This document shows, piece after piece, positions 3,973 to 57,070 of a stretch of 64,000 bases of DNA. The first letter of the stretch is position 1. The number at the start of each line of letters is the position of its first letter. The stretch lies in NCBI RefSeq assembly GCF_009914755.1, contig NC_060926.1. One strand, given 5' to 3'. This stretch comes from the human T2T-CHM13v2.0 reference genome, Homo sapiens. Below the pieces are notes generated by a model. The model had not been told where the DNA came from. It ran no database searches and saw only the letters and a list, made by a program, of their open reading frames with translations. The position numbers and the translations under genes are program-made.

Positions 3973-5226
3973 AGCCCTGTGGTCCAGTTTGTGTCCAATT
4001 GGCAGGGCTGGTGCACTGTAACCACGCATGTTGTGTACCCCAAAACTCTAGGGGGTGCCATTCACATAATCTATGACGAGAACAATCGCCCTAGTGGAGT
4101 GCATTGCAGGCCCTCACAACAGCTGGTATCTCTGGCTGGGCCCTCTGTCAATTTATTCTAGGATGAAATTCTCCTTTCCTCACCTCCCACCACACGGAAA
4201 AAGAAAAGGCACACATTATCAAAGAAAAATCTTCCCATAAAAATGGAGCAGGCTTAATCCTCTCCTGCCCTTCTTCTCGTCGCCCTTGCCCTGCCTTGCC
4301 CTTTTCCAGATGTCTCCATTTAGTCATGGTGAGAGCTGAGCAGCGGACAAACAGCATGGCTGCCTGAACACCCTTCACAATCGATTGAGCTGTGGCAGCT
4401 GGGCTTGCCCCCAGATGAGGGGAGCTCTGTGCAGACGGCGATTATGCATGGGGAACCAGAGAGCCTTAGGGACCAGGCAGCAATGACAGTGTCTCTGTGA
4501 CCCTCACTTCACTGCAATTAGCAGCCCTGAAAATTAGTAAGGGCTCTCTGAGCTTTAACCTGCCTCCCACAGACACCAGCTCAGCCTCACCTGGGGAGAC
4601 AGCCCACCCGAGGGATGGGAGGCAGTGCTAGCAGTGGACATCTGGACACCCCTAATGAGGCCAGCCCAGGATGGGAGCTCAGCTAATTGCTCAAATCGGC
4701 CGTGATGTCTGGCTTCCAGCTGCCTTGTCTGGCAGCACCATTTGGATGTCTTGAGTTTACTGTGAGGTTGGGACTGAGAGACCCTGAGGAATGGGGAATG
4801 TCAGCTGGGGTTCATGCTGAAGCAATTAAGAGGACATTTGTTGCAGGTGAAGAATGGCGGGACAGTAAAATAAAAATATCACAGCTTGCTGTCATCTTAC
4901 CAGGAAATCCATAGTCTCCAGCCACGACAGGTTATTCCAGGAATACCGAGCATGTGATGTGTGGCTGCAGAAGCAGCACACGAAGGCTAGAAAATGTCCT
5001 GGGACCTGGAAGAACCAGATCAGGGCTCTTCCTAGCATTCCTTATCTCACCCTTCCTGAAAAACGGGAGAACTGTTCCTTCCTACCCTACTCCCAGACTC
5101 AATTTACCCTGAAGCTAAGGAAGTACAGGCTTCAGGGCCCCTCATTTGCATAGGCCAGTTTCAAGACCCTGGAAAAAGTCCTAGCAATGTTTTACCAGGT
5201 GGACTTTTTTTTTTTTTTTTTGGCAA

Positions 5227-5259
<33 letters not shown>

Positions 5260-8798: not shown

Positions 8799-9239
8799 TG
8801 AATAAACCAATTCTTATTGAAGAATTTACCTCACACATCTAAATTTTTTCAAGGTGCCTTGTCCCACTGAACTACCCATCTACGTTTGGTAATCGGGGTT
8901 GTCATGGCAAAGGCCGCAGGACAACAACTAAGTATCAGGAAAACGTGAAGGGAGCCCAGGCTAACCTGGATCCATTGAATAAGAGACACCCATTTGGGAT
9001 CTGTCAGACAGGGAGAACGTGTAGGGGTTCTTGGGGGCTTACTGGTCTGGAGAATGGTCAGAAGAAATTTGAATCAAGAGTCATCAAGCTGAAATCCCTC
9101 TCCTAGATCTTTCTCCTTGATAAGGCAAAGCAGTAGATTATAAACCCAACAGACTGTTGCAGAGCATAAACCCAACAGACTGTTGCAGAGCTTGAGTATA
9201 AGATAATGACTCTCAGGAGATAAAAGGAAAGAGTAGAGA

Positions 9240-9830
9240 GAATTTCACTCATTTAAGACTGATAGACTGGGTATGGAGATAAGAACAAAAGTTGAATCAA
9301 GAATGATTCCTAGATTTCGGACTCAGGCAACTGGATCAAAGGAAATGCTATTTACTGAGATAATGAAGGCTGAGGGAGAAACAGGGCAGAAGGCACAGGG
9401 AACATCAAGTTCCTTTTCACACAAGTTCAAGTTGAGAAACTTGTAAGATATCCAGATACAGATGTCAAGTAGACTGTTGGTTATATAAGCCTGGAGCTCA
9501 AACAAGAGGTCCGGTTTCAAGTTATAAAATTGAGAGTCATCAGAAAAAAAAGGTGAAGTTAAGCCCATGAGAATAAATCAAATCATTCAGAGAGAAAGAA
9601 AAGCAGGGAAGGGGAGGAAAGGAGACTGGGGGACGCAGAGGGTAGAGGAAACTAGCTCTAGAGAATCCAAGCATTTAGAAAGCAAGTGAAAATATTGGCA
9701 AAACAGAAGTGGCCAAAGCAGGAGGAGGAGAACCAGGAGAGAGTGTTACCTTGGAATCTAGGAGAAGAAAATGACTTAAAAAAGGAACAAAATGGTCCTC
9801 TATGCCAAGTGCTGCTGAGATGTAAATCCG
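9240..9830 (-). mobile_element. L2 LINE fragment
   Basis: 'atttactgagat...gagaaacttgtaagatatcca...gatgtcaagtagactgttgg' is a typical L2 minus-strand segment. Confidence 0.7.
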
Positions 9831-13495: not shown

Positions 13496-15982
13496 GCAAA
13501 ATAGATCCAACATGCAATTTCCCATTAGAACATTTTATCTGTGTCCATGGAGGTGTGGCAGTCATTTATTTGCCTCAGAAAAATGAAAGACCTCATCCCC
13601 TTTTCCTGCACATCCTGTACCCACCCCATACACACCCTTTATCATGATTGTCATATAGGTCTCTATTGTTTCTATGGCTCATAATAAAACCCATCTGCCT
13701 AGAGGGGCCAGGGGAAGGGTTGTACCCTACAATGTAAACGATCCTGGAGCCCCAGCACTAAGACTTCTAGGATTAATGAACAATGTTGCTCAAGTGAGGG
13801 CACTTCCTTCTCAGGGCTCCATTTCCTGGTTTGTGAAATTAAGGTCTTCAGATATGGAGCAGAGATGGGAGCCCAAAAACCCCTTTGTTTGGAAATAAGT
13901 AATATTCCCCAATTTCCTAGATACTCGCCATCTAGAAAGTGCAGCTGCTGAAAGAGATTTGGAAAATCCTCCGAAGTATTTGTGAATGCAGCGTCCTTGC
14001 AGGTAGCCAAAGGATAATGACTCCCACCCAAATCTTCATGAGAGGCTGGGGAAGTCCAAACTGGGCAGCTAATGAGAGGGGCCCCATGTTGTCCAAGTAG
14101 ACAGTCAAGGTCCAGGTAGACAGTCAAGGTCAACTCATCCCTGCTACTTCCTGCTGCTCCTACAACTGGGGCCATGTAGAGGAATGATTTGAGCAACCTG
14201 AAAGACAGTCTTTCCTTCCTCTCTCTGCATTCCTTAACCCTTTATGTCTCTGGGCCATAGACATATTGTCTTCTATGGTCAAATTAACCTAATGTCTCTC
14301 TTGTATCATTCTGAATCTTTTTAGTCATCCTAATGAAGAGCCTTGGGGACTATTTACTGCTCCTCAGTCAGTAGGAGTTGGATTTTATCTATTGTGAATT
14401 GTGAACAAGAGCTCTATTTGTTATTTTTTATTAGTGTACACTTCTTTCCTGATGATAGCTGTTTAATCATCCAGGATTAAGAAATAAGTGATTCTACAGA
14501 TGCTCCCTTGCTTGCTCCCCAAAATTACCCCTTACCTACCCTCCACCCTATGATACCTCCATCAGCGAAATAAGAGTGGTCCTTATGTGACCTCTCAACC
14601 ATCCCAAGGCCTGGTCCAGTACTGCTCTAGTGGACACATGAGTGTTGAGCTAAAACAGAACATCACATTGTGGACCTAATGGGATCTGGCCAAGAAGCTC
14701 CACATGGCCAGGGGTAAAGCACAGGGGTTAGAAATCATAGCCCTGTATTCTGCTTAGAGCCTGCTCCATGATTCTGTGTGGTCTCAGAGAGGTCTCTTTC
14801 CATCTCTGGGCCTCTGCTTTCCAGCTGTAAAGGAGGAAGAATTATCCTATTCACAACATCAACAAAAATTAGAAAGTGCCTGGGAAAAAACTTACCAGGA
14901 AATAAAAAAGAACAGTATGAACAAGGATATATAGAAGAGCTGACTCACTAAATGGGAAAATATGTGTTCATGTAAAGGTAAATCCCAGATCAATCTATAA
15001 ATGTATTGCAATGATTATTTTTAGGAAACTTGACAAGATGATTCTAAAATTGATATGCAAGAATAAATGCAGGCGAATGAAAACAACAAGCAAAAGAGGA
15101 CATTCACCCTACCAAACAAAATAACACCCTAGTAATTGTAGAAACATGGTATTAGCTCAGGGATAAGTGAGTAGATCAATGCAACAGAATAGAAAACCTA
15201 CAAATCAACTAATGTGTCATAGGCAGAACAATAGCTTCCCAAAGATGGTGTTCCTGGAACCTGTGATTATGTTAGGCTATGAGGTATATTAGCTTGCCAG
15301 GGCTGCCGTAACAAAATACCACAGACCAGGTAGCTTAAACAACAGCAATTTATTGTCCCACGGTACTGGAGCTGAAAGTCCAAGGTCAAGGAACAAACAG
15401 GGTTGCTTTTTCTCTGAGGCCTCTCTTACTGGCTTGCAGATGGATGCCCTATTGCTGCTTTTTCACATGGTCTTTTCCTCTGTACATGCACATCCCTGAT
15501 GTCTCTTCATGAGTCCAAATTTCCTCTTCTTATAAGGATGTCAGTCAGATTGGATTAAGGCACATCCATACGACCTCATTTTACCATAATTACCTCTTTA
15601 AAAGCCCTATCCTTCGATACAGTCACATTCTGAGATACCAGTGATTAGGGCTTCAACGTATGAACTGGAGGGGACAGGGGAATACAGTTCAGTCCATAAC
15701 ACATGGCAAGGAGGAATCAAGTTTGCAGATGGAATCAATCTGCTGACCTTGATTAAGATAGGAAGATTGCTATGGTTTGAATGCTTGTCCCCTCCAAATT
15801 GCATGTTGGAATTTAAACCCCAGTGTGGCAGTCAATTGAGAAGCAGAGTCTTTAAGAAGTGTTTGGCCCGGGCACGGTGGCTCACGCCTGTAATCCTAAC
15901 AGCAGAGTCTTTAAGAAGTGTTTGGCCCGGGCACGGTGGCTCACGCCTGTAATCCTAACAGCAGAGTCTTTAAGAAGTGTTT

Positions 15983-16368
<386 letters not shown>

Positions 16369-19005: not shown

Positions 19006-22000
19006 ATACACCAACACGTTTGGAGCTACCTGGGGTTTCTCCATCATCCCAATGGTAATGATACCACAGTATGAGCCATAGATTTCTGTCTTCCTCCGTC
19101 CAGCACCTGAGCCTTGCCTACCTTTTGCCACATGCAGAGGAGAAGCAAATCACAAAACGTGTCTCCCTGCCTCCTGCTGGCATTCAACAGACCTCACCTA
19201 GGGCTGCAAACTGGAGCTATGAAGACCCAGCAGAGTATGTTTTGTCCCCTATGCCCACAGTGGCATCGCTGGGACGACCACACATTGGAGTACCACCTCC
19301 ACTCCAAGGAAAAGCAGGGGAGCCACAGAAACAAATTCTCCACTGCTGCCCTTTGAAACCATGCTTTGAAATGTCCACCCAATTTACCCCCTTTCTGATC
19401 TAAATTCTACACCAGAGTAGGGGACACATAGCCTAGAAGGAAGGGCTGCTGTGACACTGGAAGCTCCTTAAAGACCAGATTTTTTTCATATGTGTCTCCC
19501 GTCCCAAGGCACAAATATGAACTTGCATCTGAAGCTGAATAGCTCTTTAGATAACGCATGCTTGCATTTATTCTCTTTGCCTTTCGCATAGTAGACATTC
19601 AGTGAGCCTATCAGGACTGGAGTGGAATGGAATTAGATTGGGAGGAAGCTGCCAGTTGAAAAGTCACTTTTTCTAAAAAGCCTTCTCCTATTCCCCTGGA
19701 GAGAGGGAGATGCTTTTTATTCCCTTCTCTGTGTTTCCACAGCTCTTGGTGCTTCTATTTCATCCCTTGTCATGCCGAGTTGCAATTTATGTTTCCCTTC
19801 TGCCTTCCCAATATACCAAGAACCTGCCATATGCAAAGTCGCCATGTCTTTTTCATTGTTGTATCTCCAGGCCTGGTACCCGTAGGTGTTCAAAGGATAA
19901 GTAAATTAATGAACAAACCCTAGCCTAATGGAGCAGCTTTTCAATCAAAATGAATTATAGCTCTAAGTGCATTAACCTTTAGAGGTAAATAGATGAATAA
20001 GAAATGTGCTAAAGGGCACTGTAAAGGGCATCAATTTCACCCTTAGCACTGTAAAGGGCATCAATTTCACCCTTCCAATGTAGGAAAAAACCTTCCAAAG
20101 GATTCCAGATTTGAATCCTTGATTTAAATACCCCCTGAATTCAGAAGTTTATTGCCTTAGTAAAACAGTCCATTTCACTGTTAGACAGCTTTAATTATTC
20201 AAATGTTTTTCCCTCTAGTCAGCTTAAACCTTCCTTCTAATAATCCCTTTGTGGGCTCTGGTTGCAGCCTCCAGAGAAAACATTGCTAAAATACTTCTAA
20301 TCCATAGCAGAGATTCTAGAAGATGCCATGGTCCTCCACCCCGGACTACTTCTGATCTGTTGCCTATGGCAAGTATCTTGTACATCACACATCCAGTGCA
20401 TTTTGCTGCCCTTAGCTAGGATTATCAAATATCCATTCTAGTCCATTCTGAAGAATATCCACAAAAAACAAATCCAACCTATTTCTCTATTTTTGGTCCT
20501 AGGGCTGAAACATCTTAGATCTCAGTTCTAACTTAAATTCTTTCCTTTTTTATTTTTTTTAAGTCTCTCTATTCTTTCAGTGAAGAAAGAACTTTTTTGG
20601 CTCCTATCCACTCTGTAAAGAATAACTAAGTCCTCTCTTTTTCTCCTCCCCGAAAACATGCCCTTGGCAACCCAGCCTTCTCTTTTATGAGCTGACTCAT
20701 AGGTTCTGAGTGAAAAAAGCCCTTCCTTAAACACCCTCTACTGCCACGTGTGGATGAGGCTGCAGTATCCCAGTGACCAATGGAGCCAGGAAGTCGTGGC
20801 TCTGTGAACTGTGCCAGCATGACCCAGGACACTTCATGAGTCCCTTGTGCCCAAAACGTCACCACTTGGGCAACTACGTGTGGAAGCACCACCTCCACTA
20901 GGGGCTGGAAGGACGTGAGAACCAGCAGGTCTCTCCTGGCAGACCTATTGTAGGCTCCAACCCTCCCATGCTGGCCAGCCCTGAAGAGCACCAGCCCCCA
21001 TGCCATGAACTTAATTACTTTGCAAGAGGACAGTTTGTAGCTGGACTTCCTCTTTGTTCTCACAGAAAGCTGAGAGTGGGCACCAGAACAAAGGCGGGTT
21101 TTTGCAAAACACAGGCAGGAGAGAACCCATGCTGCAAATCTGGGTCTGGGTCCATGTGTGGAAGGGATTGGGGAAGCACAAGGATGGGGCTCAGAAGGAA
21201 CTGAATCCCTACCTGAGTGCTCATGCAGTGCCCTACCTGAGATCCCATTAGACCCAGACATAGCTGAACTGATTTACGCAAGCTTAGAGAAAAAAGTGTC
21301 TTTAGGGCTTCTGTCTCCCATCTCCCTGATTTTAGAAGACGATTTTTTTAAAGGTATCTTCTTTTATTTTTTTAAAATGTAGTAAGTTGAAAGGGGTGTG
21401 AAATTTGCATTGCTCACCTGATCAAGAGCTTTAACCCTCATTATTAGAATGTTCTTTATGTCTAGCCTAAATCCCTAAAGCTACTTCATGAGGTAAGTCT
21501 ATGGAGACTCATAAGTGGTTACTGGGGCATCCTTTAATGTGATAGATCAGGACTGATGGTCCTCTCACTCCTTTGGCTCCCCCTCCTTACCTATCTGAGA
21601 AGAAATTCCTTTGGCGTATGAACTCTGTGAGGTCATGTTGAGAGGTCACCAGTATTAGCAAGGGAAAGGCTTACGTGTGGAATCTGTGCTCCACACTGAG
21701 AAACCTGAACTAGCACCACCTACTTCTACAGAGGTCTGGAGGGCTTCTCTGACTCACAGTGGCCAGGAAGGGTGGGGAGAGAGTCAGAGGGAGTGCCCCA
21801 AAGTAGGGACGAAAAGAGAAAAGGAGACAAGTGCGAGGAGGGACTCCTTGGTGCCTATCCAAGCCTGGCAATCTATGGGCTGAAAGATAATTCTGCAGGT
21901 AATATAATCTTTGTCACTACCACCCCACACCTTGGCTCTGTGTGTTTGCAGTTACACAAAATTCTTTACTTCCTGAAATGGCTGCAGCTGCTCTCTCTTC

Positions 22001-27107: not shown

Positions 27108-27582
27108 CGTGGATGGACCTGAAGGACATTATGCTAAGTAAAATAAGCCAGGCACAGAAAGACAAATACAGTATGATCTCACTTATATGTGATATCTAAC
27201 AAATTTGACCTCATAGAAACAGAGACTAGAAAGGTGGTTATCAGAGGCTGAGGGGGAGGAGGTGGAATGGGAAAGAAGATGTTGGTCAATGGGTACAAAG
27301 TTTCAGTTAGACAGGAAGAATAAGATATTTTAGTGATCCATTGCACTGCATGATGACCACAGTTCCTAATGTATTGTATAGTTCAAAAATGCTAAAGGAA
27401 TAGATGTTTAATGTCCTCACCATGAAAAACATTGCTAAGTTGGCAAGGTGATAGATATGTTAATTAGATTAACCCTTTCTATAATATATACATAGATCAA
27501 AACATCACATGGTACTCTCTTAAATAAACACAATTATTATTTGTTTTAAATTAATAAATTTAAATTTTTAATTTTAAAAAAG
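27108..27582 (+). mobile_element. L1M (L1MA/MB) 3' end
   Basis: 'gtggatggacctgaaggacattatgctaagtaaaataagccaggcacagaaagacaaata'. Confidence 0.88.
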
Positions 27583-28619
27583 AATCTGGAAACGAGGAAA
27601 AGAGCGCCTAGATTTGGCTGGTGGTTAGAGAAATGGTGAAGCCGAGTCAGATCCAAGAATGGGGACTTTGAAAGGTTTTTGCCAACAAGTATTTCTCAGC
27701 AGAGAGTTTTTCCATTGTCTGAAGAAGAACCGGTCTGTTTTCCATCCCTCAGTCTCTGCAGAGATATTGTCACCACCACCCACTTTGTTCATGTCCTTCT
27801 TTACCCTTAAAAGACTTTGCTTCTTTCTTCTCCTTCCAAATCCTTCAGAATCCAGCTCTATTCCCACTTCCTCTGGGATACTCCCTGGTGGGCCTGTCCC
27901 TCTCCTGTACCCTCCTACACAGACCCCCTTGTGGCTTGTGGTCAACTCCACACCACTTAGCACAAATTTGTCTTCATTCCTAGACACTTTGTTGTGGTTT
28001 CACACATGCAAATCTTCTTCCCCAAACCAGTCAGCTTCTTTCCAAGGGCAAGAACCATATCTTCTATTAGCTTCTGGGCCCAATGACCTGAAAGAAACCA
28101 GATTAAGCCCCAAAGGAAACATAAAGGGTACATACAAAAGCTTTGAATACCAACTGGATCCTTTGCACTAGGTCTTTCCATCAAGATCTGTGTCCTTAGC
28201 TACTGGATTCACTCTTGTTCTCAGATCCCAGACACAAGGGAAAACAGAAAAGGAAAATGCAGCATCGTCTTCTTTTTCCATTTTAGGAACTCACTTCTTG
28301 CATATTGGCCTGGATCCTAATCCTACCCCTTAAAAGCCTTGGATTCTCCACTCCCCAATATAGGACCAGTATTCTGCAGTTCTCCTTCCTCCTGCAGAAG
28401 AACATCATTAGACAAAGGTGTGGAGAAGAGGTCTTTCTCTTCAATGTTCCTCCCTATTTTCCCTTAGCCACAAATCAGTAGAGAGATGTTAGATGGCAGA
28501 GTCAGATTGCAATATGAGTCATAACTAACAAACAAAAGAATTACTATTCAATTCTTAATAAATAGGAATTAATTCATTAAACTAAATTCTGAACTTCAAA
28601 TTTAAAAAAATCAAGTGCA

Positions 28620-29100
28620 AAAGCATAGCGGGGTAAAAGATAATTTAAGTTAACTGCAGGTGTAAGACAAGACAATAATAAATAATTTCTCTTAAGAAAG
28701 TTAATGCAGCTGGGCTGCATCAACAAATACCTAATGTTCAAGACTTTAGAGGTGATATTTCTACTTTATTAGTGCATTGGTCAGATTGGAAGTAGAACAT
28801 TTGGGATTTAAAAAGGAGGGCATAGACCATAGCCAGAGGAAGACAAGGCCAAAAATGGGTCTATAAACCACATCACAAAAAGAATGCTAGAAGAAACTGA
28901 AAGTATTTTGCTTAGAGAAGAAAAGTCTCATGGGGAAATGATCCCAGTTTTCAAATATTTCAAAGGTTTTCCTGTAAGAAAGAGACAATTTATTCTGTTA
29001 CTCTGGAATAAGAGGAAGCAGATCTCAATAGGAGAGGAAAGTTACTTTAGTGCTTTAAAAATAAAATGGGTTACTTTGTGAGGTTCCCACCACTGGAAAT
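28620..29100 (+). mobile_element. L3/CR1 LINE fragment
   Basis: 'gggctgcatcaaca', 'ttcaaatatttcaaagg' and 'gaggttcccaccactggaaat' are CR1-type segments. Confidence 0.55.
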
Positions 29101-29552
29101 ATTAAGCAAACACAGTCCTTTCAGAAGCCTGCTACTTCCTCCAAGAGTTCAGTGTCTCCTTGCTGTTCTTGGGCTATTCAGGTTGCCCCGGTGGTGGCAA
29201 AGGAGATCAGGCCACAGACAAGAGATCGAGCCTGCTCCTGCTAAGCTTACATATCAAGCTCTCCATCCCTTGGCCCAGCGAGGATGCAGTGTCCCTAGAT
29301 AAATCAGACAGGCTGAGGCTTGCTGATTAAGCCTAATAGCTAGCTGATAGAAGACACATACACCCTGTCTGCCCCCAGAAAACAAAAGACCATAGGGCAA
29401 AATGTTTAATGATGCCCCCCAAATACTTTGCTTCCTGGGGTAACTCTAGGCATCTAGGAAGGTATGGTAGAGACATTCAGAGGTCTAAGATATCCACTTT
29501 GGTTTGCTAGAGCACCTTAGGAGTGATTTAGTGATTTGCATTAACTTTCTTA

Positions 29553-29977
<425 letters not shown>

Positions 29978-30049
29978 CTATTTATTCAGAATCACAGCAG
30001 GAGTGATTTACTATCTCCCTCCCTTTCCATGAGGGAGATAGTTATTAAA

Positions 30050-37367: not shown

Positions 37368-37895
37368 GGAAGAATCAATATTTTCTCTTCTACACTCTTA
37401 AAAGCCTCTTGGGCCATGATTCATTGACTTGGAATCGCTGAAGCTAGCAAAGTGCTTGGCATATAATTTATGGTGAATAAATGAAGGAACACTGAACAGC
37501 TATTTTCACTGTAATGATATAAGTATCATCATCAAGATAAATAGTAGATATGATTCTACAGAAGTACAAAGAAGTACACATAGCCTGGACTGGAGGGGTG
37601 AGGATGGGATTCTGAATAATCTTAAAGAATGGATTGGGATTAGTCACGAAGTAAAGAAGGGCATTCCAAGCAGAGGGAAGAAATTGTCATGGCATATTGG
37701 AATGATTGTGGCAGAACAGAATTTAAGTGTCATGAAGGAAGCCAATCACTGTATGTATCCCCAACACCTTGCACAAGCAGGCATCTAGTAGATTGAATAT
37801 ATGTATTAGGTAAATGATGAATATATGTATTAGGTAAATAAGAGAATGTGGGTCATCTCTTTTCAAAACCATAGAAAGCTTAACAATATTCTAGT

Positions 37896-38110
37896 CCAGG
37901 GACTGGCAAACATTTTCTGCAAAGCGCCAGATAGCAAATATTTCAGCCTTTGAAGGCTATGTAGTGTCTGTCACAACTACTCAACTCTGTTGTGTCCCAT
38001 GAAAGCCACCATGGATGACAGGTAAATGGCGTGAGTGAGTTCTAATAAAACTATATTTATAAAAATGGGCAATGGGCAAGGAATCATAGCTTGCTGACCA
38101 CGGCTCTAGT
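37896..38110. mobile_element. MER58A-like hAT-Charlie element
   Basis: 'cagggactggcaaacattttctgcaaagcgccagatag...tctaataaaactat'. Confidence 0.8.
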
Positions 38111-39329
38111 CCAACACCTAGAGCACAGGTGGTTGATGGCGGCACTTAAACTAAATATTAATGTCCCAATATAAGTGTTTGGACTGAGAGTAGCACAGAT
38201 GTTTCGAGATAAGAGAGGTAACTGTAGGCCTCAGAAACCAGGAACATATTCACAGAGGAAACAGGATTCCAATTAGGCCTAGAGGCTCAATGCAGTCCAA
38301 AAAATGAGAAGACAAGATGTTGAAAAAAGAACACACACCTGGTAGTTGCCTGTCTTTTCACCAATGTATTTAGGTTCTAGCTGTGCTTCCCTGAACCTAA
38401 GGTAGAGGAGGAGAGGGAACAAGGGTAAAAGCAAAACCACATTCTAGGACAGCATGTCAGGCCAAAGAACAGACACAACACTGTGTCTCCTAAATGGGGA
38501 TTTGGGGAGTTGAAAGGCCTTAGTCTCTGGGCGAACAACACAGAGACACAGAAGCAGCCAGTCTGGCAGATGGAAAAGCACAGCCTGATCTACTGCCCAA
38601 GAGGGGAACCAGCCCCTGGTCAGAATCTCCCTCTGCATTTCAACTGAGAGAGAATGCACAGTCTCTTGGGACCCCAGATGTGAAAAGCCATTGTAAGTTC
38701 ATTCTGGCACAAAGTCATTTTACAAATTGAGAAACTAAGTTCTAGACAGAAGAAACAACTTTCCCAAGGTCACAAAGCAAGTGAGTGGCCAGGGTGATTC
38801 TGAGTCTTAAAGCTGGCCTCCCAATTCTCTGTAGACCCTTCTCCGACATCCTGCTGAAGCTCCCCACCCCGACCCCCATCCCAGTGCAGGCATTCTAATG
38901 ATCTTTTATATATAGACATACAGGTGTCTAGGCTTTGGATGTAAAAATCTGTAAGACATTTCATCAGCATTGACTCTATCTCCTATTAGATCATAGTCCC
39001 TTGAGGTGATGGGTGGCTCATCTGCTCTCTCTGGCTCTGTGAAGACAGGTCTCTGCACTCACTGTGAGGAGGCCAAGTCCTGCACTTCTCAGACCTGCTT
39101 AGAGAACCCTGCCCTTCAGGAACCATCCCCAGGTTCACTCCATCCCCAAACACAGGAGACTAAGCCCTTTTCAATTCCACATCAACTACCTGAGCTCCTA
39201 CTAATGCTCTGATTAGAATTATTTGTGTTCAAGAGTATCTGTCTTGCCCACTAGATTGAGAACTCCTCAAAGGCGAGAATTGTGTCTCAGTTATCTCTGT
39301 ACTTCTGGCCATGAGTCTGACACATAGAT

Positions 39330-39848
39330 AGGTGGTATTAACTGAGGGTTAAGTGGGTTATAGCCTCCAGAGGGCCAGGAGAGCATAACCAAGAGATTAA
39401 GAGATTGTGTCAACTGGAAAAAAGGCAATCCTGAGTTCAAATTCTGACTCACATGCTATTTAATCTCTCTGAGACTTAGCTTTCTCATCGGAGTCATTGT
39501 CAGAGTTAAATGAGACAATGCTGCTGGTATTGGTGGCAATGAGGGCTGGTTCCCTTCTTGGGCAGCAGATCAGGCTGTGCCCCTCCATCTGCCAGAATGG
39601 CTGCTTCTGTGCCTTTGTGTTGTTCACCCGGAGACTAAGGTGGTATTAACTGATGGTTAAATGGTTATAGCCTCCAGAGAGCCAGAAGAGTATAGCCGAG
39701 AGATTAGGAGATTGTGTCAACTGAAGAAAAAAAAAAAAAGGCAATCCTGAGTTCAAATTCTGACTCACACACAGAAGGTATTTAATCTCTCTGAGACTTA
39801 GCTTCCTCATTGGAGTCGTTGTCAGAATTAAATGAGACAATGCTGCTG
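39330..39848. repeat. Direct duplication (~200 bp, MIR-containing) separated by an inverted copy of 38518-38615
   Basis: 39330-39526 ~ 39638-39848; 39543-39640 is the reverse complement of 38518-38615 (88/98 by manual alignment). Confidence 0.92.
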
Positions 39849-40814
39849 AAGCCTTTGGCAGAACACCTGGCATTCAGTAAACACTCTATCAATGTGCTGG
39901 AAGACCAAAGTCAGGCTGCCAGTATCATGGGTTGGGCTGTGGATGAGCTGGTTAGTTCACACTGGGCTGTCTCGCAGTTATCTTTATTTAGGTACAGGGA
40001 GAGCTTGAGCAGAAGATGGATGAGGTAAATCCACCCATGTGACCAGAAAAACTAGAAAATCAGGCCCCACTCAACTCCTGAAGGAAATAACCCAGGGTAC
40101 GCCCAGTCCCAACAACCAGGCCAGTGGCCTCTCTAAACCAGGCCAGCACAATGCTGCAGGCTCTCCAAGCCTCCTGCTAGTTGACAGAGCCCCACACACT
40201 TTCCAGAGAGCTGGCCCTCTATATTCTCCAGCTAAGACCCTTATATCTCAGGCTGGCTGGTGACAATGGTGAGATACATTGGGTAGCTGACAAAGAAAAA
40301 TAGACTTTTTTTAAAGAAATCAACACATCAACACCTGTTAGTCAAAGCTAACTGAATTCTAGCAGCCTGTGAATGCCAAAAAAGCGGGGGGAAAAAAGGC
40401 ATGAAAGATGGATCATGGAAGGCAATGACAGAGACAGAGGTCTCAGAGCAGATGGCCTGTATAGTCATGGACTGGGTGGGAGGTGAAGGTAGCAGTTCAC
40501 CTGGGGAGTCCGGTAACAAGGTCAAAGCACAAAGTTGTGGCAGCTAAAGTCTGGACCAAATCTCTCCCAACTGCATTAAGATTACGAAAAGCAGAAGGAA
40601 TAGGTAAGTAAGGGATAAACTAAAATCAAATTCGAGCCCCCAAACAAAACAAGTGCAACAACAACAAGAAACCTTTTAAGAGAATAAAATCTAAGCAAAT
40701 TAAATTTACATGCAAGAATTTAACTGGATAAAGCACACTTCTGAAATACAAAGTCAAAAGGCTAAGATGTAACTAAGCATAGACCTTCAGGGTCTAGCTC
40801 TGTGGAAGTAAAGC

Positions 40815-52401: not shown

Positions 52402-52434
52402 AGAGAATAAGTGTGTGTATGTATGTGTATGTGT

Positions 52435-52474
<40 letters not shown>

Positions 52475-53487
52475 TATGTGTGTGGGGGCTGGAGGGTAGA
52501 CGACGGGTGGGTTGGGGAAGGAAGGTAAAGACTACATAGCATACTGTTAAGTAAAAAGGTTGCAGGCCAGATTTTTCCAGGTCAGCTGTCTCTATTCATC
52601 AGACTGAGTTAATTTCTATAGTTCCAACTCCCTTTGGCCTGAGTAAATGAAACCTAAGAGATGCTTAGCGTTTATGCCCTTGTTTTCTTAGCCCTTCTGA
52701 GTGTGCCGTCAACCCGAGGCATTAGCCACACCCCTCTCTTTCGACACCTCCAGGGATTTGCTCTGTTTATCCAGCAAACTTGCATCAGACTGTCTCTAGC
52801 TTAGGGAGGCTGCTCTGTTGACTCACTAACCTGTTTGAGAAGCTGACAAAATCAACTTTCTCTGTAGGAATCCACAAAAGCAAAAGAGTCTCCTCAAGAC
52901 TCCCCACTCCTTGCCTTTTTGAATGAATCAATCCATCCCCAGCCCAAGTGAAGGACACATCTAAGGAGACCCCTTTTTCCATTTATTTTGTTGGGTTCAG
53001 TGTCATTGCCTATATTGTCCATTTAATTCCATCACAAGATCCTGCATGTTTTGTCTACATGTTGATGGCAGCCCCATCCATTTGATTTGTATTTCTTACA
53101 CTACATGCTGGGCATAAGGGCAATGCACTTAAACTTACGGAAACTCATCCTATGTCACATAAGTGTGCATAAACACACTAACACACACACGAGCACAACC
53201 TGCAAAATCCTATTCAAAGAGAATTCTAAAGTCCTACTTCCCCGAAGAAGCCCTTACATGCTGCACAGAGCTTATGTTTCTGTGCCAGAGAAACTGTCCA
53301 GAGAAACTTCTTGGTTTGCTCAATTGAAGGGAGTTGAGACTATAGGAATTAGCTGTCTGATCAATAGAGATAGCTGACCTGGAAAAATATGGCCTGCAAC
53401 CCTTTTACTTAACAGTATGCTATGTGGTCTTTACCTTCCTTCCCAAACCCACTGCTCCTCTACCCTCCAGCCCCCACACACATACAC

Positions 53488-53543
<56 letters not shown>

Positions 53544-53550
53544 ATTCTTT
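52402..53550. repeat. Long inverted repeat: arms 52402-52635 and 53326-53550, each with a TG/CA microsatellite
   Basis: manual alignment about 90% identical over ~163 nt of unique sequence. Confidence 0.97.
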
Positions 53551-53859
53551 GAAAATTGAGCAAACCAAGAAGATAACAGTGGGGAAAGGAGTTGTCTTGC
53601 ACAGACTGGAAGAAAAGCCTTGTTTCAATTAAATATCTACATATTTAGTCACTGTCTAGAATGAGGTGACATTCCACTACACAAATATATTTTTCTTTGA
53701 GTTCTACTCCATGTCTATATAAATCTTACAGATTTGTTCAACATTTACTGCCATTATTTATAATTGTCTGGGAATACTACAGGTATTAAGTTGATGCTAC
53801 CTGTTTTCCACCAAAAAAAGTCTAGATGATAAGGACTTTACCGCTGAGCAATGACCCCA

Positions 53860-55380: not shown

Positions 55381-56063
55381 GAAGCTTTGCTTTTCAGTGG
55401 TCCAGGCTGCAAATATGCAGCCAGCTTACCCCCTAATACACACCAATTTTGGTGACCAACATTGGCCATGCCTAAGTGCCTAAGACCACCAAATGGATAA
55501 ACGCATTCGGCACCAAGCCCCTGCACGGTGGTGAGCATGGAAACCTGGAGGTGCCATTAATTTTCAAGAATGTGGTAAAGATTTGGATCTCTAATCCAAA
55601 CATGATCCTTTCTACTACACGTGCCAGAGCACCCATGGAAAATAAAACTGGGATCACAAAAGGGAAAGTGCAAAAGCCTGGGGGGAGAAAGGCAGACCCA
55701 GCCAACAGACCAGTGCTGCAGACAAACCAAAAAGAAAACCACATTGAAACTTAAATGGGGGAACAGAGGATGGGTTGGTCTTCTTTTCCACTGTTCTTTT
55801 TCCATCCACAGAATTACTCAATATTGGGTGAAGGAGTTCCTTAGATGTTATGGATTTGAAATTTTAAGAAAAAATATGACAGGACTGCTTGTAAATTTCA
55901 ACCAGAGGTGTGCACAGATTATTTTGAAAAGCACCGCAGCCAAGTTCCCTGCTAGAGAACTGGCAGGAGGTCAGAGGGAGGGATGGTGGTGGCCTCCCAT
56001 GTTAGTATTATGGGGTGCGCTGGCTGGATATTTGCAGCCTGGACCCCTGAACAGTAGAGCTCC
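55381..56063. repeat. Inverted repeat: core arms 55381-55439 and 56005-56063
   Basis: 50/59 matches by manual alignment (ggtccaggctgcaaatat / atatttgcagcctggacc). Confidence 0.95.
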
Positions 56064-56481: not shown

Positions 56482-57070
56482 TGTGATTGCTAATTTTTTG
56501 TGTCAATTTGGAGTGTGTTTGGGGATTAGATTAATATTGAAATATGCAGAGGTTGAGTAGAGTACATTTCCCTCCATAATGTGGGTGGGCCTCATACCAT
56601 CAGTTGAAGGGCTGCATAGAACAAGAAGACTGGTCTCCCTGAGCAACGGGAGACTCTCCAGCAGCCTGCCTTCAGACTTCATCTGCATCACTGGCTCTCC
56701 TGGGTCTCCAGTCTGCTGGATCACATTGCTGATTTTGGACTCACCAGCCTCCATAACCACATGAGCCAATTCCTCATAATAAATCTCTTTCTACATACAG
56801 ATGCTCCTCAACTTATGATGGGGTTACATCCTGATGAACTCATCATAAATTGAAAATATCATAAGTAGAAAGTGCATTTTCAACTTATATTATTTTTAAC
56901 TTATGATGGGTTTATCCAGATGTAACCCCTGCGTAAATCCAGGAGCATGCTGAAGGTGTACTGCTTTCAAGCCATTGTAAAGTTAAAAATCATAAGTCAA
57001 ACCATAAGTTGAGGACCATCTTATATATACATCCTACTGGTTCTTATTTCTCTGGAGAACCCTGACTAAT
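56482..57070 (+). mobile_element. MLT2 LTR interrupted by Tigger4/MER46 (~56799-57022)
   Basis: MLT2 'ccctccataatgtgggtgggcctcat...cagttgaaggg'; Tigger4 'cagatgctcctcaacttatgatggggttacatcc'. Confidence 0.85.

What the first reader, a model, noticed from the sequence alone, without database searches (positions are those of the whole stretch)
38518..39848. Duplication/inverted-insertion scar that extends a stem seeded by two inverted MIRs: a hairpin caught being built
Seen: after 39526 the sequence jumps to the reverse complement of 38518-38615 (39543-39640, 88/98). It then restarts at 39330 via the shared 'agg', giving a ~200-bp direct duplication. The new inverted arm lies on nearly the same axis (~39090) as two oppositely oriented MIR fragments (~38700-38830 and ~39420-39526). 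Established: FoSTeS/MMBIR template switching leaves such scars. Inference: fold-back template switching may be how this locus accumulates palindromes.
Basis: partly seen in the sequence, partly recalled or inferred. Interest (0 to 1): 0.7.

Follow-up and report, generated by a model that had tools for sequence, protein, structure and literature searches.

The report
Old copy-paste DNA repair scar
A 197-base stretch in an intron of the human DIRC3 gene is duplicated with a flipped 98-base copy of nearby DNA between the copies; this is likely the ordinary scar of one copying or repair error tens of millions of years ago, and the two old repeats inside the loop likely did not cause it.

Summary
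The rearrangement is real and as described. The order is donor B (38518-38615), spacer, D1 (39330-39526), 16-nt filler, inverted B (39543-39640, 88/98), AGG microhomology, D2 (39638-39848). Inverted and direct copies differ at 10/98 and 15/196 sites (Fisher p=0.51, low power). That fits one event about 20-45 Myr old: a decaying scar, not a hairpin in the making. It is a known kind: a '4-before-1' template switch, dup-invDup, or repair-mediated duplication. A catalogued one lies about 98 kb away. The MIR-seed idea is poorly supported. The switch landed 68 nt beyond the MIR register, the longest perfect MIR-MIR helix is 7 bp, the pre-event sequence is predicted to form no in-register MIR pairs, and 0 of 5 neighbouring inverted duplications have such a pair. 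In its favour, the near-shared axis is rare (0.24% of placements). On DIRC3-strand RNA the MIRs are predicted to pair only after the new arm closes the loop. Three more inverted scars lie in the window; the local excess is not significant (p=0.09). No primate genomes were available.

The parts
38518..38615 (+). B, donor of the inverted insert (switch points 3 and 2); no repeat-profile hit
38715..38825 (-). MIR-like fragment 1 (profile positions 27-153, E 9e-12); name recalled
39231..39328 (+). L2-tail-like fragment ending one base before D1; the profile's next five letters match the first five of D1, so this junction is likely the original one; name recalled
   Evidence: E 2.8e-9; the scored alignment itself stops at 39328
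39330..39526 (+). D1, first copy of the 197-bp direct duplication (switch points 4 and 1); its MIR-like part is cut at 39526
39424..39518 (+). MIR-like fragment 2 inside D1, with two internal deletions against the profile
39527..39542 (.). 16-nt filler at junction 1; no exact template in the window; weak candidates 39299-39314 (12/16) and a two-piece copy of 39331-39339
39543..39640 (-). Inverted copy of B (acceptor), 88/98
39638..39640 (+). 3-nt microhomology AGG at junction 2
39638..39848 (+). D2, second copy; its MIR-like part runs on past 39848 into the original right flank (to 39873-39895)

Best explanation
A 197-bp direct duplication with a filler and an inverted 98-bp copy of nearby DNA at its junction is present, and it likely arose in one germline copying or repair event about 20-45 million years ago, with the inverted MIRs likely bystanders. 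Steps: (1, inferred) a 3' end stopped at 39526; (2, shown) 16 nt of filler follow; (3, template shown, switch inferred) synthesis copied 38615 back to 38518 on the opposite strand, across a 911-nt loop, by fold-back or by invading the other strand; (4, microhomology shown, annealing inferred) the new end joined at 39330 through AGG and so copied D twice. In four-point terms the order is 3-2-4-1. The ancestral allele is inferred to be A-B-C-D-E, because old repeats run across C|D1 and D2|E. I lean to break repair with a fixed second end (SDSA or polymerase-theta-type joining) over free fork switching: a 10-nt match to the growing end at 39155-39164 was not used while a 3-nt one was. That preference is weak. 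The scar has since likely decayed neutrally.
For: Two junctions explain both duplications, and the inverted copy ends exactly where D2 starts. Divergences 10/98 vs 15/196, p=0.51; non-CpG 8/94 vs 12/190, p=0.47. Repeat continuity across D2|E and up to C|D1. Size, distance, filler and microhomology fall in the ranges of Pace 2009 (PMC2671141: mean 162 bp, peak near 1.2 kb, filler 1-68 nt, microhomology 2-9 nt). Walker 2021 reports many '4 precedes 1' events giving direct plus inverted repeats (PMC7954356). Hermetz 2014 shows fold-back over 766-70,466-bp spacers with 2-8 bp microhomology or local filler in 18 of 21 junctions (PMC3907307). Against a MIR role: 68-nt offset and 7-bp longest helix; 0 in-register pairs pre-event; 0 of 5 other inverted duplications have an in-register MIR pair.
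Against: No outgroup genome could be examined, so a single event is not shown; the divergence test would detect two ages only 21-58% of the time in three simulated cases. The 197-bp flanking duplication far exceeds the 4-21-nt target-site duplications in Pace's Table 1. The MIR axis coincidence is rare (0.24% at +/-40 nt, 0.55% at +/-100 nt). The filler has a 12/16 match at 39299-39314 that 3.5% of 2,917 random 16-mers equal, which would allow a three-switch or two-step history. Junction 1 has no microhomology. The C|D1 continuity rests on five letters beyond a scored alignment.
Confidence: 0.73

Rival explanations
1. Two steps: a 228-bp tandem duplication of 39299-39526 came first, and a later repair-mediated insertion put the inverted 98 bp into the second copy while deleting 15 bp. 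The 'filler' would then be the diverged start of that second copy. A three-switch single event gives the same sequence.
For: Filler matches 39299-39314 at 12/16, matched by 3.5% of random 16-mers. Microhomology plus a 1-15-nt deletion is among the commonest signatures in Pace's Table 1.
Against: 4 differences in 16, three of them transversions, against 4 transversions in 294 sites elsewhere. An independent insertion would have to land 16 nt from the earlier junction. The match was found after the fact.
Confidence: 0.13
2. MIR-seeded fold-back: in single-stranded DNA the two inverted MIRs annealed, perhaps protein-assisted, held the 3' end near 38680, and synthesis started a little further on, lengthening the stem.
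For: Axes within about 30-35 nt; 662 of 272,136 placements do as well. MIR1 vs reversed MIR2 scores above 496 of 500 shuffles. Fold-back at inverted Alu/LINE pairs occurred in 3 of 21 junctions in Hermetz 2014, and spacer length did not limit inverted Alus in yeast ssDNA (PMC10164571). The MIRs were less diverged at the time (inference).
Against: Priming from the stem would copy 38616-38683, which is absent. The pair shares 45 of 70 alignment columns and a 7-bp longest helix; one base of that helix is a D1-only change away from D2 and the profile. Duplex energy -23.0 kcal/mol is reached by 19 of 300 random pairs. A non-MIR alignment in the same loop scores higher (40 vs 31) on an axis 122 nt off. 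In yeast the effect fell below 75% homology. The finding was picked from a genome scan, so a 0.24% coincidence will occur somewhere.
Confidence: 0.09
3. Whatever its origin, the arm is kept because it forms a functional double-stranded stem in DIRC3 pre-RNA (editing or processing).
For: On the DIRC3 (-) strand RNA about 94 of 98 arm pairs are predicted, and about 27 in-register MIR pairs form inside them (max p 0.98); on the + strand they do not.
Against: The inverted pair is not more alike than the direct pair. No Rfam match at E<=1 in 38000-40500. The supplied annotation shows no exon or element here. Any 90% inverted repeat folds in silico.
Confidence: 0.04
4. Chance similarity, or independent insertions of the same mobile element.
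For: Part of D is a MIR-like repeat; the genome search can miss diverged repeats (note).
Against: E 4e-31 and 9e-65; only two genomic places each; D1 and D2 share 90 bp of non-MIR sequence and the same two internal deletions.
Confidence: 0.01

Closest known systems
Repair-mediated duplications (Pace et al. 2009, PMC2671141; read: parts 1-4 of 8 of the text, passages, Table S1 parts 1 and 8 of 15 plus one search)
   Same: Single-copy donor under 5 kb away, about 100 bp, filler and microhomology at the junctions, acceptor inside an old repeat, primate age. Their chr2:218147770 (hg18) row matches my L011 pair (101 bp, 97%), about 98 kb from this event.
   Different: The flanking direct duplication is 197 bp against 4-21 nt in their Table 1. 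This locus is not in Table S1 (prefix 2182: 0 hits); their filter needs abutting repeat coordinates, which this duplication breaks.
Four-point template switch, '4 before 1' type (Walker et al. 2021, PMC7954356; read: passages and part 2 of section 8)
   Same: Order 3-2-4-1; yields a direct plus an inverted repeat and looks like one large insertion; point 2 precedes point 1, so an intra-strand switch is possible.
   Different: A filler lies at the first switch. Their set is short-range and within great apes; I did not see their size limits.
[quoted passage not shown] 2020, PMC7025897; read: passages)
   Same: Same topology: two duplicated segments joined by two inverted junctions, thought to be one copy-paste event; 531 cases in cancers.
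   Different: Those are somatic and far larger; this is an old 0.3-kb germline gain.
Fold-back inverted duplications (Hermetz et al. 2014, PMC3907307; read: passages)
   Same: Single-copy spacer of 911 bp between departure and landing; a 16-nt locally templated filler is also described there.
   Different: Those go with terminal deletions and a dicentric intermediate; here copying stopped after 98 nt and returned.

Membership tests
Repair-mediated duplication (Pace 2009) | Insert of 50 bp or more with one other copy in the genome | tested here: met
   98 bp; 2 places found (lower bound)
Repair-mediated duplication (Pace 2009) | Donor more than 50 bp and less than 5 kb away | tested here: met
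   927 bp between arms
Repair-mediated duplication (Pace 2009) | Microhomology, filler or deletion at junctions; no poly(A) tail | tested here: met
   AGG and 16-nt filler, no poly(A/T) at the insert ends
Repair-mediated duplication (Pace 2009) | Interrupted repeat with abutting consensus coordinates (+/-30 bp); target-site duplication 4-21 nt if any | tested here: not met
   Profile positions 51-203 then 52-232; duplication 197 bp. It works like one but fails their operational filter.
Repair-mediated duplication (Pace 2009) | Empty site in an outgroup species | not testable with these tools
   No other primate genome is held
Four-point template switch, 4 before 1 | Descendant = left flank to point 1, reverse complement 2 to 3, then 4 onward, with 4 upstream of 1 | tested here: met
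   1=39526, 2=38615, 3=38518, 4=39330, plus filler
Four-point template switch, 4 before 1 | Direction resolved from an ancestral sequence | tested here: inconclusive
   Inferred only from repeat continuity
Dup-invDup local 2-jump | Two duplicated segments linked by two inverted junctions on one chromosome | tested here: met
   definition
Dup-invDup local 2-jump | Single-event origin | tested here: inconclusive
   p=0.51 with 21-58% power
Inverted-repeat-seeded fold-back | Junction at homologous positions of the two repeats, in register | tested here: not met
   Landing 68 nt beyond the register and about 100 nt outside the MIR1 hit
Inverted-repeat-seeded fold-back | Repeats alike enough to anneal (about 75% or more in the yeast assay) | tested here: inconclusive
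   Today 45 of 70 columns, core 22 of 28 pairs; no pairing predicted; identity at the time of the event unknown

The most novel reading that the evidence does not exclude
Old, heavily diverged inverted MIR pairs steer where a broken or stalled 3' end lands, so long hairpins in introns grow outward in steps around ancient repeats; the DIRC3 region is a hot spot for such copy-back events (9 local duplications in about 237 kb), and this one built a compound stem (98-bp arm plus 27-bp MIR helix) in DIRC3 pre-RNA.
Probability: 0.07. Interest if true: 0.6.

Novelty: new member of a known kind. Interest (0 to 1): 0.2.

Why it matters
By itself little: it is a clean, apparently uncatalogued example of a known mutation type in a non-coding intron. 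Two side points have some value. A plain self-comparison found 9 such local duplications in about 237 kb here, of which 1 is in the 2009 catalogue, so that catalogue's 0.62 per Mb either undercounts widely or this region is rich in them. And scars with long flanking duplications are invisible to that catalogue's filter. If the MIR-steering idea held genome-wide it would extend repeat-driven fold-back to far more diverged repeats than experiments support.

Tried and rejected
Outgroup dating: no primate genome is held, so branch placement is untested. Genome-wide background: only 30 kb of distant control (3 x 10 kb) was examined; it held 0 single-copy local pairs, too little to decide on a hot spot. 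The 26-nt inverted similarity 38503-38527 / 39156-39181 across switch point 3: equalled by 58 of 150 random pieces, rejected as a cause. A 3'-end complement near the landing site: the best duplexes listed among windows starting at 38600-38640 were about -6.5 kcal/mol, weaker than -10.5 elsewhere. Filler as two slipped pieces of 39331-39339: 12 of 18 covered, equalled by 9.3% of 1,930 random words, unproven. An inversion of the spacer between the arms (same junctions) would need a second event; rejected on parsimony. First L2-tail profile (3 sequences) was too weak and was rebuilt. Rfam: none. Rows dropped before counting local duplications: pairs masked as interspersed repeats, tandem arrays (L009, L019, L025, L026 116-499, window 15842-16019) and self-palindromes. 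Literature; none of the listed papers concerns this locus by title, the 15 listed had 0 mentions of DIRC3, and searches gave no usable genome-wide rate. Subscription papers and preprint supplements were not visible; 13 of 15 parts of Pace's Table S1 were searched but not read.

Full report
OBSERVATION. Segment B (38518-38615) matches 39543-39640 in reverse at 88/98 with no gap; D1 (39330-39526) matches D2 (39638-39848) at 181 of 196 aligned bases with three indels. Each query found two places in the genome (lower bounds). Junction 2 shares AGG. Junction 1 has a 16-nt filler (39527-39542) with no exact template in the window.

REPEATS AND DIRECTION. No repeat library was at hand, so I built profiles from the window and 200 kb of flanks, leaving the index locus out of training after round 1. 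One profile (235 positions, 88 hits at E<1e-3) hits 38715-38825 (-), 39424-39518 (+) and 39741-39873 (+); I call it MIR from recall. It runs from D2 into the right flank but is cut at the end of D1. A second profile, L2 tail by recall, covers 39231-39328, and its next five letters equal the first five of D1. So C|D1 and D2|flank are likely original joins, the ancestor was likely A-B-C-D-E, and the inverted copy is the acceptor. This is inference from repeats, not from an outgroup.

AGE. Substitutions: 10/98 and 15/196, Fisher p=0.51; pooled 25/294 = 8.5% (95% interval 5.6-12.3%). The test is weak: power 21-58% in three simulated cases. At 2.2 to 1.0 x 10^-9 per year the point estimate is 20-45 Myr. 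In the rows of Pace's Table S1 that I read (133 used, from parts 1 and 8 of 15), mean divergence was 9.4% for events in all primates (54 rows), 6.2% for those shared with macaque (19) and 5.0% for those shared with orangutan (60). The event is therefore likely of simian or catarrhine age. The inverted pair is not better preserved than the direct pair, so there is no sign of ongoing building, conversion or selection.

MECHANISM. Switch points are 1=39526, 2=38615, 3=38518, 4=39330: a 3' end left D, gained filler, copied B backwards, and rejoined 197 nt behind where it left. Walker et al. describe many such '4 before 1' events, Li et al. the same topology in cancers, Hermetz et al. fold-backs over spacers from 766 bp with short microhomology or local filler, and Pace et al. 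824 proximal repair-mediated duplications. Sequence cannot separate fork switching from break repair. The last ten bases of the insert before the final G also occur at 39155-39164 yet the join used three bases at 39330, which mildly favours a fixed second end.

THE MIR-SEED TEST. For: the axes lie about 30-35 nt apart, and only 662 of 272,136 placements of a 911-nt loop in 294 kb hold an opposite MIR pair that close (11 such pairs within 1.1 kb, the index pair excluded from the placements); the pair beats 496 of 500 shuffles. Against: in register, 39526 faces 38683, but copying began at 38615, and the 68 nt between are not in the insert. The pair shares 45 of 70 columns, longest helix 7 bp, one base of which is a D1-only change. 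Duplex energy is matched by 19 of 300 random pairs. An alignment score of 31 is reached in 26% of 400 random loops, a larger search space than the MIR comparison. Folding the unchanged stretch 38480-39526 gave 0 expected in-register MIR pairs for both strands as DNA with and without G-T and as RNA. These folds use today's sequence and ignore proteins. In yeast single-stranded DNA, inverted Alus lost effect below 75% homology (PMC10164571, abstract and passages). Of 5 other inverted single-copy duplications (window 28551, 52404, 55383; L013; L015), 4 have no MIR-profile pair in the loop and L015 has one about 220 nt off axis (hand calculation). I put seeding at about 9%.

After the event, the minus-strand RNA (DIRC3 sense by the supplied annotation) is predicted to form about 94 arm pairs and about 27 in-register MIR pairs inside them; plus-strand RNA forms 0.04 and minus-strand DNA at most 3.5 in-register MIR pairs. 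So in the model the arm brings the MIRs together, not the reverse. No Rfam family matches and nothing shows function.

IS THE LOCUS SPECIAL? The same scan found 4 inverted single-copy pairs in the window, 2 in 200 kb of flanks and 0 in 30 kb elsewhere. The five others each gave two genomic places. P=0.032 with the index event, 0.092 without; for all events 0.29 without. With 3 direct pairs in the flanks (L011, L020, L026; not searched genome-wide) there are 9 events in about 237 kb, 38 per Mb, against 0.62 per Mb of repeat DNA in Pace, whose method is much stricter. Only the L011 pair is in their table; it fixes the hg18 offset and shows the index event (about chr2:218,244,300) is not listed. 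Whether the region is a hot spot is open.

VERDICT. Real, old, a member of known classes by topology; it works like a repair-mediated duplication but fails that paper's operational filter because of its 197-bp flanking duplication. The MIR seeding that made it interesting is weakly supported. Interest 0.2.

Noticed in passing
window 52404-52634 / 53327-53548: Second inverted duplication (133/147 outside its GT/CA tract). The right arm is itself flanked by a perfect 19-bp inverted repeat (53307-53325 / 53554-53572, the only such word with a 150-400 spacer in the window) and a 13-14-bp tandem repeat at 53280-53308: likely a serial, multi-switch insert.
   Followed up: partly
window 55383-55439 / 56005-56061: Third inverted duplication, core 40/45, loop 565 nt.
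   Followed up: partly
window 28551-28708 / 29537-29992: Older inverted duplication (100/119). An Alu-like element (about 29566-29873) with a worn target-site duplication sits inside the right arm; 17 bp of the arm lie on its far side, so the duplication likely predates the Alu.
   Followed up: partly
L015:6545-6624 / 8802-8881: 80-bp inverted insert (91%) that splits a MIR-like element at abutting profile positions: a textbook repair-mediated duplication not found in Pace's Table S1.
   Followed up: partly
L011:243-343 / 2043-2143: Direct 101-bp, 97% duplication; equals Pace's row chr2:218147770 (hg18), human-chimp-orangutan.
   Followed up: yes
L013:8917-9061 / 9315-9452; L020:319-558 / 1277-1521; L026:2179-2242 / 4482-4540: Further local duplications: inverted 79%, direct 89%, direct 78%.
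   Followed up: partly
window 56801-56948, 5205-5250, 27536-27585: Self-palindromes; the first overlaps an NCBI-masked repeat and looks like a small DNA-transposon derivative (recalled, untested).
   Followed up: no
window 15842-16019; 9140-9191; 20016-20074; 37794-37839: Perfect short tandem duplications (59 x 3 taking in an Alu start, 26 x 2, 30 x 2, 24 x 1.9): likely recent and possibly polymorphic.
   Followed up: no
window 38575-38577 vs 39581-39583: Three adjacent A/G differences between the arms, perhaps one multi-base change; counting them as one would lower the inverted divergence to about 8/96.
   Followed up: no
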